From: Eledone cirrhosa
Lineage: Eukaryota
NCBI GenBank assembly: GCA_964016885.1
Contig: OZ024742.1
Coordinates: forward strand, 76,074,001 to 76,138,000
DNA length: 64,000 nucleotides
Reading direction: 5' to 3'
The notes below the pieces were generated by a model. The model was not told the origin of the DNA. It saw nothing but the letters and a program-made list of their open reading frames with translations, and did not search any database. Position numbers and translations under genes: made by a program. This document shows, piece by piece, positions 2,766 through 53,469 of the stretch; the stretch's first letter is position 1, and the number at the start of each line of letters is the position of its first letter.

Positions 2766-2940
2766 ATAGGAACAAGTATGACCCCGACTGTAGAGCTCAA
2801 GCCGTTTCGACGGCTATTTCTGGAAACGGCTTGAGCTCTGCCGTCGGGGTCATACTTTTTCCTATTACCCACTCTACCACCCTAAGTATTGAGTACTTTG
2901 GTGCGTTATGGTCCATCTGGTTCCTTACCACACTTCCTTC
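2766..2940. repeat. Short fold-back element in (TA)n; other partial copies at ~28438-28498, ~35845-35940 and ~57228-57310
   Basis: 43-bp inverted arms at 2766-2808 and 2823-2865. The right arm continues into a tail (…AGTATTGAGTACTTTGGTGCGTTATGGTCCATCTGGTTCCTTACCAC) that recurs elsewhere next to (TA)n. Confidence 0.75.
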
Positions 2941-3010
2941 GTTATATATGTGTGTATATATATATACATATATATATATATGGAAAATTTAGTGTCTAGA
3001 TTTGAGCGAG

Positions 3011-3107
3011 CTTCCTGAAGAATCCGGCGCTCGAGTTTATATAATTATTATATAATTATTACATAATTATTGGAAAACTCAAAACACGGACGAAACCATG
3101 GTAGAGG
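3011..3107 (+). ncRNA. Type I hammerhead ribozyme motif
   Basis: cttc-CTGAAGA-[tccg…gagttt…aaactc…cgga stem II]-GAAA-C-CATG-GTA-gagg. Palindromic stem III ACCATGGT and a GUA cleavage triplet. Confidence 0.7.
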
Positions 3108-3870
3108 TATTTAAATGTATTCTATTTTCTCCTAGTTTATTTTAAACCTAATTCTGTTTAGTTGACTATATCTAGGCGATTACGCTGTCGAAATATTCGC
3201 TAAATATTCCGCTACGGCCGACGCGAAGCGCAAGTTTTGGTTATTTGTCGGAGATTCCTTCATAGAAGCCTCATTCTTATAGCCCCGTCTATTCGATTTT
3301 TTATATAGTTAATTATGCTAATTGGGAGAGGAAATAGTATATATTTTATCTTGTGATTCTATAGACATGTTTTATGATATATATATATATATATATATAT
3401 ATATATATATATATATATATATATACATATATATGTGTGTGTGTGTGTATATATACATATATAAAGAGAGAGATAGAGAGAGATAGTTATATATATATAT
3501 ATATATATATATATATATATATATATATATATATATATATATATAGAGAGAGAGAGAGAGAGAGAGAGAGAGAGAGAGAGAAATAGAGATTTGGAATATC
3601 TGGACGTAACACTCGGGATTTTAGATGTCTCTCGTCCTCTGTGTAGGAGAGGGATTTGACATGTGGCAGGCACTGTCACTCCGGGATGTTCAGCAGGACC
3701 GTTTGCGAAAGTCCATCTCAGATCAGATGACCCTGGCGTTCTGTGTCTTTCGTTTGTATATATATTTTAACAAAACATATTCTTAATGTTTCCCCTTCAA
3801 AACATGTTTTACGTGTTTCCTTGCTTTTGTTCGTTGTCATGTCCTCCCTTTGTTAATTTTCATAAGTTTA

Positions 3871-4064
3871 TCTTCTTCTTCTTCTTCTTCTTCTTCTTCT
3901 TCTTCTTCTTCTTCTTCTTCTTCGTCGTCGTCGTCGTCGTCGTTGTCGTCTTCTTCGTCGTCGTCGTCGTAGTCGTCGTCTCCTCTTCCTCCTCCGCCGC
4001 CTCCTCCTCCTCCTCCTCCTCCTTCTTCTTCTTCTTCTTCTTCTTCTTCTTCTTCTTCTTCTTC
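3871..4064. repeat. Compound trinucleotide microsatellite (TTC)n(GTC)n(TCC)n(TTC)n
   Basis: Direct reading. Confidence 0.95.
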
Positions 4065-48873: not shown

Positions 48874-50795
48874 ACAACAACTTCATTCGAAAAGAATTAC
48901 ATAAAAAATATAGAAAAACGAGTGAAGTAACCCTTAAGCACATCAATGATGAGGCATGCGAAATAGTGAAAAATCTCGGAATCGAAGATAGGACAGGACC
49001 ACTCTTACCGGCGGTACCCACCTTCAATCTTAAGGACCACAAGGTAAACTTTGATAATGACCCTAAAATTAGATTAATCTGCCCCTCTAAATCAGATATA
49101 GGTAAAATAAGCAAATATATCTTAGATAGAATCATCCCTCAAATTAAGGCTAAGGTTAACATTAAACTCTGGGGGAAGACCCAAGAAGCAATAAGATGGT
49201 TTAATAGCATTAGCAATAAGAATAAATCTAAGTTTATCCAGTTTGATATCGATGAATATTACTCATCGATATCACCTGAAACTTTGAATAGAGCCATTAA
49301 GTTTGCTAAGGATAACTCTGACCTTACAAACGATGAAATTAAGATTATATTAGAAGCTAGGAAAACTATAGTCAAATTTGATAACAGTTATTGGGTACGT
49401 AAAGATAGACCCTCTAACTTTGACATAACAATGGGCTCTAACGATTCGGCGGAAATAACTGATATTGTGGGGTTATTTATCGCCTTTAGACTCCAGGAAA
49501 AATTCAGCAATCTCCACGGCGGAATATACCGCGACGATGTTCTCCTCCTAGCTAAAAACCTTAATAACCAAAAACTAGAAAAACTACGCAAAGATATAAG
49601 AAAACTACTACTCGAAATAGGACTAACTATAACATATGAATACAACCTTAAAGTAGTTAACTTCCTGGATGCCACACTCAATTTAAACTCTGGTTTGATT
49701 AAACCGTTTCATAAATTGAATGAAAATCTCAAATACCTAAATGTTGGGTCTAACCACCCCATCTCTATAATTAAATCTATCCCTAAAAATATTTCCCTTA
49801 GAATCTCGGGTCTATCTTCTAACATACAAGTATTTAAGGAACACGCCGAGTACTACGATAACGCCCTTAGTAAAGCAGGCTACCTCAACAAAATAGAGTA
49901 CATAGATGGGAACAATCAAAACACACAAAATAAATCCCACATAGGTAGATATAATAACACAACACCAAACCACACTTACTACCATAGTATGCACACCAGT
50001 AAACCAACAAACAAAACTAATAGAAAGCGATGCAAAGAGTACTTATGGTATAACCCCGAATACAATAGCTCCATTAGTACAAATTTACCAGTACTCTTCT
50101 TTAAAATAATTAAAAGACATTTTCCCACATCACACACATACCACAAAATCCTAAACCCTACCACTATAAGACTGTCATACTCTACAGCGTTAAACCTTGA
50201 ACAACACATAAAGAAGATCAATACTAGAAGGTTAAACGAAAACACTAAGAACTTAAGTACAAAGAACACAAAAAAAACAGTAGACAATACACTACAGAAC
50301 ATAAATAAACCACACCTAAGTTCGTCCGCAATACTACTCCAGAGAAAACCCAACGTACACAACTGTAACTGCACCTATCCTGACAACTGCCCCCTCGGCA
50401 ATAACTGCCTGGAAAAAAATATTATTTATAAGTGTACCATTAAATCCGGAGGCAACGAGTGGTATTACGTGGGATCAACGGCAACATCGTTTAAATCTCG
50501 ATTGTATAGGCATTCTTACTCAATAAAACACCAGAGCCAAAGAAATGTAACAACTTTAGCAGAAAAAGCTTGAACGCTCAGGGATAGCGACCAAAAGTTT
50601 ACCCTAAAATGGGAAAAATTAGCTAAAACCCAAAGCTTTTCCAGGAGCCAAAATTTCTGCAAATTGTGTAATCTTGAGATTCATTACATAATCACACACA
50701 AGAAGAAACTGCTGAATAACAGAATTGAACGAACATTATTCTGCCGTCACAGAACTAAAACCCTTTTTTCCCACTACAAGCCGAATATTACATAA
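48870..50795 (+). CDS. PLE RT + GIY-YIG reading frame (5'-truncated; in-frame TGA at 50571-50573, then 73 more codons)
   Basis: ORF 48867-50573 (568 aa) with GIYRDD and CNCTYPDNCPLGNNCL…IIYKC…YVGSTATSFKSR. The frame continues TLRDSDQKFTLKW…CKLCNLE…LLNNRIE…CRHR to TAA at 50793. Confidence 0.85.
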
Positions 50796-51757
50796 AAGAG
50801 GGACATCCCCCAACTATATAAACCTTAATCTAGTTAGAAAAATATAAAAACAATCTCTTCTCAACATATATTAATAACCTTAAATTACCATACTAATAAT
50901 GAAAAGATATGCTGATGAGAATAGGTACAAATATGCGATAATGAATGTGTCTAAAAACGTCCATAAGTATGTATATATATGTGAAAATGTATATAAATAA
51001 GTAAAAATAAAAATATATATATATGTTTGATGTGTATAGTTAGATGTAAGTGTATTCATGTATTAAAGTGCTTATATATATATATATATATATGTATGTA
51101 TGTGTATATGTATATGTATGTATGTATGTATATGTATATATATATATATATATATATATGTATATATGTGTATATATATATATATATATATATGTGTATG
51201 TATATATGTGTATATGGATGTGTATGTATGTGTATGTGTGTACACATGGACTAGAGTATGTATGTATATATGTGTGTGTCTATACGTGTGTATATAATGA
51301 TAAGTTGAGTATGAAAATGTATACACATGAGCGCGTATGTATGTACATGAATACATGTGTGTATATATAGGTGTATGCATGTGTATATATATGTAAGTAT
51401 GAATATGTGAATTGTGAGTATATGAATTTTGTAGAGGTGTGCAAATATATTTGTGTGAATGCGTGGGTGAAAGGATACGTACACTCGAAAGGAAAATTTA
51501 AGTCTGAATGTTAATTAAGTGCAAACACAAAACCAACCACGCATATCTTTACTATCTCTAATCCTTCTATAGATTTAGAAAAATAACCAATAATATATTC
51601 TATAAAAAATGTCAAAACAACAGATGGGAATCTAATTACTCACTGCCACCAAGAATTCTCACTGCTATCGAAAAACCACTCCTTCAACTATTCTTCTAAC
51701 AACTTCACCCCTCCCTCCTAATATTCTCTATAAAAACTAAATAGGTCCTCAGTAATA

Positions 51758-51874
51758 TTATTCTGATGAAATGACAGTAAATAATAACATTGAAATATTG
51801 AATGTCTGCATAACTAAAAGTTTCTAGATAGCTGTTTTAGGTTATGTAACTGTTATAGAAACACGTGTCAATAA
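51758..51874 (+). ncRNA. Type I hammerhead ribozyme of the PLE pseudo-LTR, with long stem II insertion
   Basis: ttatt-CTGATGA-a atgacag…(~70 nt)…ctgttat a-GAAA-C-ACGT-GTC-aataa. Palindromic ACACGTGT stem III and GUC triplet. Confidence 0.75.
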
Positions 51875-53469
51875 ATTCCTTTCAACTAAACTGTATCCAT
51901 TCAAATCTTTCTATATATATATATATATATATATATATATATATATATATATATATATAAAACTTAAAACTAACTCTATCTGATGTCGATTGACTGTTTG
52001 AGTAGTTTAGATATGGTTATATATTTTTCTGGGAGGTTAAATGGAAAGAAGTGTGTAGGAAGGCTGTTTCTAAATGTTTCCCTTTTTTCTGAAAAGGTTA
52101 TGAAGCTGAAAGAACACCGTGGTTTCTATTTTACAGTTACGCACAACTATGCGAGTGGCACTCATGTACAGATTTCCGGGCAGCCCTCCAATTTGCGGCG
52201 TTTAGCATTCAAAAGCATTAAGTCAGACACACACTCTCTCTCTCTCACAGACATACACACACACACACACACATACACACACATACACACATACACACAC
52301 ACATACACACACATACACACACAAACACACAAATACACTCATAGACACGCATTCTTATACTCACACATACACAAACATACACAGACAATGTTTAATATTT
52401 TGCTAGAAGATTCCGGTAAAAGGAGACAATTTTATAAAAGTTTGCTAACTTGGTGTTAGGAAATATCGACAGGCAATTCTAGTTTCTAAGAACTGATTCG
52501 AATGTTGAGAGGAATTTTATTTATTATTTCAATGGAAATATACTTCGAGATTTCCCTAGGTAATGCTGTATCGTGTAGTTAAGAGGTGTGATTTACTGTT
52601 TCTCTGCGTACTTGTAATATACTACGTTCAAATGACGATAGCAGTTTACCGAGTAATCTCAATAGGCGCAGCAATAAACAACTTTAATTATGTGATTCTG
52701 AAAGCTAAAAGACCTACACATTAATTACGTAATAGGTGTGATGTGGTTGTATTTAGTAAGCAATTTCGTTTATGTAATTGATGTTTTCTAATTCTAGTTG
52801 TACTGTGAGACAAGTAAGTAAAATTTACAGCTTTTATTTTAATTAAATTGCAGAAGCATATCCTAAATTGTATCAAGGCTTGACAAGTAGTACACTAAAA
52901 AGTTGCGTTGTAGACATATATGAGATGACGAAAGACAATAGTCAGAAAATATTGGACGAATAGTTACCAACATAAAATGTAATCCTCATTTTCTATGTGT
53001 ATTAAGTTTAGTATGTAAAAAGATGAAAGCATCGAATGTATACCTACTATGTGATACATCAATCAACCCATTATGTCACACTTACTCACACACATTTATA
53101 TATATATATATATATATATATATGTGTGTGTCTGTTTGTGTGTGTGTGTGTGTGTGTGTGTGTGTGTGTGTGTGGGTGTGTGTGTGTGTGTGTGTGTGTG
53201 CGCGTTTATGTGTGTGTATCTATCTATACACTTATACTCTCAAACCTGCACATCCCTTTCCTTGTCCTTCACGAAACACAGATCTATCAACAAATAACTG
53301 CCATTTGAGTCTGTATGTTTGCCTGTGTCCGTATGCCTGTCCTGCATTTACCGATTTTTTTTTCTACTTGCCGAGGCACTTCTCTTTATTTTCTACTATT
53401 ATTTTTTCCTGCTACTTTGATGGTTCCTTTTCCTACAGACACTATTGAATTATCCTAACAACTTCACTG

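What the first reader, a model, noticed from the sequence alone, without database searches (positions are those of the whole stretch)
2766..51914. One recurring integration architecture at all scales: head-to-head fold-backs with both 3' ends in (TA)n
Seen at 2766-2940 (43-bp arms), 16745-16895 (24 bp), 32263-33178 (~57 bp), 33240-33780, 34966-35325 (147 bp), 35352-35820 (189 bp), 36234-37415 and 44851-51914 (3 kb). In each case two truncated copies of mostly unrelated elements are joined 5'-to-5' with unequal arms. The HHR or 3' ends face outward, mostly into TA repeats. Known: PLEs form partial-tandem and inverted structures, and some target microsatellites. Inference: a PLE GIY-YIG cuts (TA)n, both DNA ends prime cDNA, and the two cDNAs are joined. 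Many short HHR RNAs appear to hijack this route, making it a palindrome-generating system that would be mis-annotated as MITEs.
Basis: partly seen in the sequence, partly recalled or inferred. Interest (0 to 1): 0.75.

Follow-up and report, generated by a model that had tools for sequence, protein, structure and literature searches.

The report
Penelope insertions primed from both ends
These mirror-image repeats are back-to-back insertions of Penelope-type jumping genes and of one ribozyme-bearing parasite RNA in TA repeats; nearly every pair has one short and one long end and the halves usually match in sequence variant, which likely means that both sides of the cut chromosome each copy the same RNA.

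Summary
The eight fold-backs are real, but one (16745) lacks a proper TA-anchored left end and one starts at 32127. Four short ones are not small ribozyme RNAs: three (35352, 32127, 2766) are 3' ends of Hydra-like Penelope elements, and 34966 is likely the end of a Neptune-like one. Only the 310-bp tandem family and its older relative (33240) look like retrozymes. Across the genome, 99 of 101 fold-backs with both ends callable pair a short 3' end with a long, tailed end (42 of 43 in families sampled without tail bias). In the retrozyme family the two arms differ at 2 of 383 diagnostic sites, against 24% for shuffled pairs. Some pairs hold sequence on each arm that the other lacks, so neither arm copied the other. 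Best model: both ends of a cut in (TA)n prime cDNA at two fixed sites of one RNA, and the cDNAs join by microhomology. The architecture is published. I did not find this mechanism in the papers searched, though in vitro work points to it. This scan reached the same reading before, in this genome and others.

The parts
2768..2942 (.). Family D stub: short-ended minus arm 2768-2808, plus arm from 2823 with 79-nt tail; 3' end of a PLE whose long copies carry a GIY-YIG-like EN; only the 3' half of a hammerhead-shaped fold is present here
16745..16886 (.). Family H stub: short-ended plus arm; the minus arm is 27 bp and stops inside the element; TA flanks weak; the family has a hammerhead with long stem II; parent unresolved
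32127..33183 (.). Family F: tailed minus arm 32127-32321 (tail about 130 nt), short-ended plus arm 32322-33183; 3' end of a Hydra-like PLE; U3-A8 hammerhead-shaped motif in 21 of 30 genomic copies
33234..33773 (.). Family E: older tandem retrozyme-like relative of A; tailed minus arm, short-ended plus arm; U3-A8 core in 6 of 30 copies, with the same stem I as A
34968..35325 (.). Family C stub: short-ended minus arm, plus arm with about 65-nt tail; U3-A8 hammerhead-shaped motif at 35046-35075 (-) and 35154-35183 (+); centre 29 nt downstream of a TATA box in the parent; parent frame looks Neptune-like (by eye)
35354..35817 (.). Family B stub: short-ended minus arm, plus arm with about 89-nt tail; hammerheads at 35403-35452 (-) and 35630-35679 (+); 3' end of a Hydra-like PLE
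36240..37415 (.). Family A: 310-bp tandem non-coding hammerhead element (retrozyme-like); short-ended minus arm 36240-36503, plus arm 36524-37415 of 2.9 units ending at the long site; hammerheads at 36362-36392 (-), 36600-36630, 36910-36940 and 37220-37250 (+)
44855..48873 (-). Family G tailed arm: 3603-bp Hydra-type PLE unit preceded by a partial 3' copy (pLTR 48458-48873) and ending in a 110-nt tail; RT-EN frame broken by frameshifts and a stop; hammerheads at 45010-45116 and 48613-48719
48874..51914 (+). Family G short-ended, 5'-truncated inverted arm (unit 561-3603); RT and EN frame to 50573 with the same in-frame stop as the other arm; hammerhead at 51763-51869; (TA)n follows

Best explanation
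These are single insertion events of Penelope-like elements and of a retrozyme-like RNA, likely made when the element's RT-endonuclease cuts both strands of a (TA)n tract and each DNA end primes its own cDNA on the same RNA, one at a fixed short site (S) and one at a fixed long site (L). Shown: outward ends in TA, one S and one L end per pair, tails of 26-137 nt by family, arm lengths that vary independently, matching haplotypes, and joints with a few shared or added bases. Inferred: the enzyme acts as a dimer; the RNA is copied twice; the two cDNA 3' ends anneal by microhomology and fill each other in, which would supply second-strand synthesis; if one end fails, a solo copy results. Short, MITE-like stubs likely arise when priming occurs at the S and L sites near the mRNA's 5' end and both cDNAs run off that end. 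For family A the template is likely a circular 310-nt RNA copied round and round.
For: One-tail rule. A 17 of 17 (P = 7.6e-6), B 12, C 11, D 25 of 26, F 11, G 9, E 7 of 8, H 7: 99 of 101 overall, and 42 of 43 in A, E, F and H, whose queries did not include the tail. Neither arm copied the other. In A the tailed arm is longer in 9 loci and shorter in 8. In single-unit families the S arm reaches more than 8 nt further 5' than the tailed arm in 7 of 53 B, C, D, F pairs and in G loci L269, L275, L277 and L281. Same template. A arms differ at 2 of 383 diagnostic comparisons in 27 loci, against a shuffled mean of 23.9%; 0 of 5000 shuffles reach this. L059 has a private variant in every full unit of both arms. 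G arms differ by 0.10-0.59% within a locus; the L275 arms differ by 0.59% from each other and 1.9-4.4% from other loci. The A joint at unit 294/11 recurs in 5 loci on three haplotypes, so it forms anew. 5' hotspots lie 29 nt after a TATA box in C (33 of 42 arm starts within -150..-135) and 28-31 nt after one in G (4 arm starts). Literature: a purified PLE protein cleaves and extends both strands, starts at two adjacent RNA sites that bound the tail, and is predicted to be a dimer (PMC11167929).
Against: Two pairs break the rule (L140 in D, L184 in E), and five inverted arms stop short of S (L089, L243, L259, L263 and the window's H copy) and were left uncalled. Queries for B, C, D and G included the tail, so short/short pairs could not be seen there. 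E and H were called by eye. 28 of 53 pairs have arm starts within 8 nt of each other and 18 have the tailed arm longer, which a fold-back on the first cDNA also predicts. Arm matching is modest in older families (C 0.33 against 0.41; F 0.28 against 0.35, not significant at diagnostic sites), and F loci L210 and L235 differ at 5-6 diagnostic sites, which may mean two RNAs. Matching arms could also come from gene conversion or from one donor being expressed at a time. The B and D hotspots have no TATA box 30 nt upstream. The in vitro paper saw no difference in start site between the strands. Only the top-scoring copies were examined (at most 40 candidates scored per search).
Confidence: 0.68

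Rival explanations
1. Both DNA ends prime as above, but each subunit holds its own RNA; arms match because one donor dominates expression in a cell or because arms are homogenised later.
For: F loci L210 and L235 have arms that differ at 5-6 diagnostic sites; both arms can be 2-4 kb long.
Against: It does not by itself explain why one end is S and the other L. A has at least 8 haplotype classes among 23 young loci, yet only 1 of them shows a mismatch. G arm differences are private.
Confidence: 0.17
2. One priming event followed by fold-back: the first cDNA, or an antisense RNA as proposed in PMC3846280, self-primes and copies itself back, and the second end is trimmed to S.
For: 46 of 53 B, C, D, F pairs have the S arm contained, within 8 nt, in the tailed arm. 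Short self-fold-back pieces occur at some 5' ends (L074). D centres lie in a long hairpin.
Against: 7 of 53 pairs, 4 G loci and 8 of 17 A loci have S-arm sequence absent from the tailed arm, while the tail is absent from the S arm. Some inverted pieces consist of tail only (L217, L281).
Confidence: 0.1
3. They are MITEs or other palindromes that amplify as fixed units, or long-read assembly artefacts.
For: Centres cluster tightly in B, C and D, and some joints repeat exactly (four D copies at -39/-55; five A copies at 294/11).
Against: The ends are unequal by a tail; centres range over kilobases; many copies are solo; repeated joints sit on different haplotypes; arms differ by 0.4-10% and the flanks are not mirrored.
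Confidence: 0.03

Closest known systems
EN+ PLE insertions with an inverted 5'-truncated copy and a tail (Arkhipova et al. 2013, PMC3846280; Craig et al. 2021, PMC8557442; passages read)
   Same: Partial tandem, adjacent inverted 5'-truncated copy, head-to-head polarity, tail often at only one end, (TA)n bias that hides target duplications.
   Different: Here the one-tail pairing is counted (99 of 101), tails are 26-137 nt rather than 30-40, and the arms are shown to share a haplotype and to be non-nested. PMC3846280 explains the inversion by self-priming on an antisense template.
Hydra clade of C-terminal EN+ PLEs (PMC8557442, section read)
   Same: G has RWK, a CxCX5C linker, a C-terminal GIY-YIG-like EN, CxxC and CxH near the end, a hammerhead and (TA)n targets; B and F resemble G.
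   Different: G's unit is 3.6 kb (Hydra is generally under 3 kb), the motif reads DKI rather than DKT, and the hammerhead has an 88-nt stem II region. No tree was built.
Poseidon of Anolis carolinensis in vitro (Frangieh et al. 2024, PMC11167929; main text parts 1-2 of 4 read)
   Same: Both strands cut and extended, two RT start sites bounding the tail, AT-rich targets, predicted dimer.
   Different: The parts read do not link this to inverted insertions and report no strand difference in start site. Here S sites are mostly followed by TA in the element (6 of 8 sites listed), so a few bases of pairing to the (TA)n primer are possible.
Metazoan non-LTR retrozymes (Cervera and de la Pena 2020, PMC7229834, passages; preprint 10.64898/2026.07.22.740005, first fifth and passages)
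   Same: About 300-nt AT-rich tandem units, one type I hammerhead each, non-coding, strongly folded, PLEs proposed as the mobiliser.
   Different: Family A insertions carry the PLE signature itself (head-to-head arms, S/L ends, TA flanks). 'Inverted' does not occur in the main text of PMC7229834. Circular RNA and cleavage are untested here.
L1 twin priming (recalled, not read)
   Same: Two target nicks prime on one RNA and the cDNAs join by microhomology.
   Different: L1 gives an inversion of non-overlapping parts; here both primers copy the same region, giving an inverted duplication with fixed, paired start sites.

Membership tests
Hydra clade PLE (family G) | Single RT with C-terminal GIY-YIG EN | tested here: met
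   RT motifs and IYKC..YVGS at the C-terminal end, read from translations; Pfam and PDB gave no relevant hit, so this rests on motifs
Hydra clade PLE (family G) | RWK motif and CxCX5C linker; CxxC and CxH near the end | tested here: met
   RVRWK, CNCTYPDNC, CKLC, CRH against PMC8557442 section 11
Hydra clade PLE (family G) | DKG modified to DKT | tested here: inconclusive
   G reads DKI; related B copies read DKT
Hydra clade PLE (family G) | Hammerhead in the pLTR and (TA)n targets | tested here: met
Hydra clade PLE (family G) | Placement in the Hydra clade on an RT tree | not tested
   No reference sequences were fetched
Non-LTR retrozyme (family A) | Tandem 150-400-nt non-coding unit with one type I hammerhead per unit | tested here: met
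   310-bp unit, arrays up to about 19 units; folding z = -4.07
Non-LTR retrozyme (family A) | Self-cleavage and accumulation as circular RNA | not testable with these tools
   No RNA holder listed; uniform units within a locus are indirect support
MITE | Fixed, equal terminal inverted repeats and fixed internal structure | tested here: not met
   Ends differ by a tail; centres vary; solo copies are common
MITE | Defined target-site duplication | tested here: inconclusive
   TA tracts hide it; the empty-site search was mostly uninformative
Type I hammerhead, U3-A8 variant (C, D, E, F) | UUGANAA and GAAA cores with stems I-III | tested here: inconclusive
   Found in 5 of 30 C, 6 of 30 E, 21 of 30 F and 0 of 30 D copies by scan; by eye in two long D copies. 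Variant known from Schistosoma PLEs (PMC4209133). Activity untested

The most novel reading that the evidence does not exclude
All endonuclease-bearing PLE integration, and that of the retrozymes that borrow it, is an obligatory paired reaction: an asymmetric dimer copies one linear or circular RNA twice, from two fixed sites, onto the two ends of one break, and the two cDNAs serve as each other's second-strand template. The tail, the inverted copy, MITE-like stubs that mark the mRNA start, and rolling-circle retrozyme arrays would all follow from this one mechanism.
Probability: 0.45. Interest if true: 0.75.

Novelty: new variant of a known kind. Interest (0 to 1): 0.52.

Why it matters
How PLEs make their tandem and inverted insertions is called undefined in PMC8557442, and the steps after first-strand synthesis are unvalidated in PMC11167929. 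The pairing rule and arm matching turn this into a specific model that the existing in vitro system can test. They also give a genomic footprint linking a retrozyme to PLE enzymes. For annotation, thousands of hairpin stubs (1,500-2,200 first-look candidates each for B, D, E, F and H) would be read as MITEs, and U3-A8 cores escape CUGANGA descriptors.

Tried and rejected
Rfam scan: no hit. Pfam and PDB searches with the G protein: nothing relevant. No structure or tree was made for G. A strict CUGANGA scan missed C, D, E and F until the U3-A8 core and long stems were allowed. The idea that the repeated A joint was inherited from one palindromic master was rejected, because it sits on three haplotypes. 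L297, first called long/long, has an inverted arm that runs on into the next unit and was left uncalled. Rows dropped: L100 and L268 as duplicates of L099 and L267; L060 as too complex; A loci with an end outside the fetched stretch (10 fold-backs) from the S/L count; unit positions 159 and 168 from the haplotype test. An empty-site search over 128 insertions gave 23 candidate matches, mostly spurious; two F loci suggest a TA tract existed beforehand and one B locus suggests none. Enrichment of A arm starts just after the ribozyme cut site is weak (13 of 54 in positions 1-40, P = 0.018, five of them the repeated joint). Expression: no RNA holder listed. Literature searches found no paper stating the two-ended S/L model; most subscription papers, including Arkhipova 2006, were not searchable, and no supplements were read (Craig supplementary files and Frangieh Fig. 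S1-S2 may bear on this).
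Full report
Setting. The window lies in a 3.0-Gb animal genome (G000:C3:76074001-76138000). I named the eight sites D (2768), H (16745), F (32127), E (33234), C (34968), B (35354), A (36240) and G (44855). For each I searched the genome and examined the best-scoring copies: 36 loci for A, 30 each for B, C, D, E, F and H, and 16 plus the window for G. 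These are top hits, not random samples.

Observation. All eight inverted repeats exist, with arms 89.7-99.6% identical and 3' ends outward. Seven are anchored in TA on both sides. H is not: its left arm stops inside the element and its TA flanks are 6-8 nt. F starts at 32127 once its tail is included. TA lies within 12 nt of 105 of 112 called ends against 7.2% of random positions. Four other inverted repeats in the window show no TA-anchored ends, so the architecture is not universal. An assembly artefact is unlikely because the arms differ, the flanks are not mirrored and the ends follow element-specific rules.

What the elements are. [quoted passage not shown] Its layout (pLTR, unit, 110-nt tail, adjacent inverted 5'-truncated copy) is the published one. 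Long copies of B and F continue into frames 36-79% identical to pieces of G's protein. Two long D copies carry the endonuclease (37-39%) in their inverted arm, and long C copies continue into a different PLE-like frame that looks Neptune-like by eye. So these short palindromes are truncated ends of coding elements. A is a 310-bp non-coding tandem unit with one hammerhead per unit (folding z = -4.07), and E is an older relative. H's parent is unresolved.

Ribozymes. A, B, G and H carry CUGANGA cores. C, E and F, and by eye D, carry UUGANAA, the compensatory U3-A8 core reported in Schistosoma PLEs (PMC4209133). Counts are 5, 6 and 21 of 30 copies, and 0 of 30 for D by scan. A and E share stem I but differ in this core pair. 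Activity is untested.

The one-tail rule. Every family has two fixed 3' ends, S and L, 26-137 nt apart. Among fold-backs with both ends callable, one arm ends at S and the other at L in A 17 of 17, B 12 of 12, C 11 of 11, D 25 of 26, E 7 of 8, F 11 of 11, G 9 of 9 and H 7 of 7. Queries for B, C, D and G contained the tail and cannot reveal S/S pairs; A, E, F and H give 42 of 43 without that bias. Five arms that stop short of S were not called. Solo copies are common (for example 17 of 30 in C). In A, 27 of 36 loci show a head-to-head joint.

Neither arm is a copy of the other. In A the tailed arm is longer in 9 loci and shorter in 8. In B, C, D and F the S arm reaches further 5' in 7 of 53 pairs, the L arm in 18, and 28 start within 8 nt of each other. 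G adds four loci with the S arm further. In such pairs each arm holds sequence the other lacks, which a single fold-back cannot give. Most pairs remain compatible with fold-back taken alone.

The arms share a template. In A, arms differ at 2 of 383 diagnostic comparisons against 23.9% for shuffled pairs (0 of 5000 shuffles); among 23 young loci 1 mismatches against a shuffled mean of 16. Units within a locus are nearly uniform, and L059 carries a private variant throughout both arms, as expected from repeated copying of one circle. G arms differ by 0.10-0.59% within a locus, with private differences, and both window arms share one in-frame stop. B, C, D and F show the same trend more weakly, and two F loci may have arms from different RNAs. 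Gene conversion or one dominant donor could mimic this.

Joints and centres. Of 56 called joints, 26 show an overlap in the alignment, mostly 1-8 nt, 8 are flush and 22 have added bases. Centres cluster: C at -146 (33 of 42 starts), 29 nt after a TATA box; G at 3446-3449, 28-31 nt after one; B at -189 without one; D at -39 to -66, inside a hairpin. I had noted the RNA-start idea before looking at earlier findings; the TATA spacing came from e1-10326993 and was then checked here. Exact repeats of a joint occur on different haplotypes, so they form anew.

Mechanism. Shown: the anatomy above. Inferred: the enzyme cuts both strands of (TA)n; each end primes on the same RNA, one at S and one at L; the cDNAs join by microhomology and fill in. 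Priming near the mRNA 5' end gives stubs, priming at the 3' end gives long arms, and a circular RNA gives arrays. PMC11167929 shows both-strand cleavage and extension, two start sites bounding the tail and a predicted dimer, but saw no strand difference in start site. PMC3846280 proposed antisense self-priming. I put this model at 0.68, two RNAs at 0.17, fold-back at 0.10 and MITE or artefact at 0.03.

Novelty. The architecture, Hydra (TA)n targeting, the one-sided tail, the U3-A8 variant and the retrozyme-PLE link are in print (PMC8557442, PMC3846280, PMC4209133, PMC7229834, preprint 10.64898/2026.07.22.740005). Seven searches did not find the paired two-site, one-RNA model; coverage excludes most subscription papers and I read no supplements. 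This scan has reached the same reading many times on other DNA, including this genome; those notes are not independent evidence.

Noticed in passing
window:36240-37410 laid on runs X1, X4, X12, X24: Family A is held by 20 listed runs under 17 organism labels. In X4 and X12 it is a single 340-nt contig at 99% or more identity (310 + 30, the shape of a closed circle or perfect tandem). Raw DNA reads of X12's organism (X24, 1% of the run) gave no reads. Carry-over of an abundant circular RNA is one reading; none of the runs is on record as RNA.
   Followed up: partly
window:59029-59174: A symmetric 146-bp palindrome (arms 91.8% alike) interrupts a Ty3/gypsy-like pol frame; no TA flanks and no hammerhead, so a different route to fold-backs.
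   Followed up: no
window:7180-7964, 214-1157, 10471-10981: Three further inverted repeats without TA-anchored ends; 7180-7964 has a 45-bp arm at 97.8% and a small terminal hairpin, possibly another element family.
   Followed up: no
window:2982-3376: An unlisted TA-flanked element with a CUGAAGA hammerhead-shaped motif at 3015-3103; the same family flanks L072.
   Followed up: no
window:32084-37474: Five of the eight insertions and several other element ends are chained through shared TA tracts, a pile-up of insertions into each other's flanks; the same is seen at many fetched loci.
   Followed up: partly
window:12264-14711 (-): A decayed PLE with GIY-YIG, RWK and DKT motifs, related to G, not in the finding.
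   Followed up: no
L110; L096, L098, L031, L041 flanks: L110 has a duplication of about 30 bp of unique sequence on both sides outside the TA runs. Other loci show reiterated TA-plus-marker pieces at joints, suggesting long staggered cuts or repeated template switching.
   Followed up: no
L099/L100 and L267/L268: Identical insertions at two places with matching flanks: segmental duplications or assembly duplicates.
   Followed up: partly
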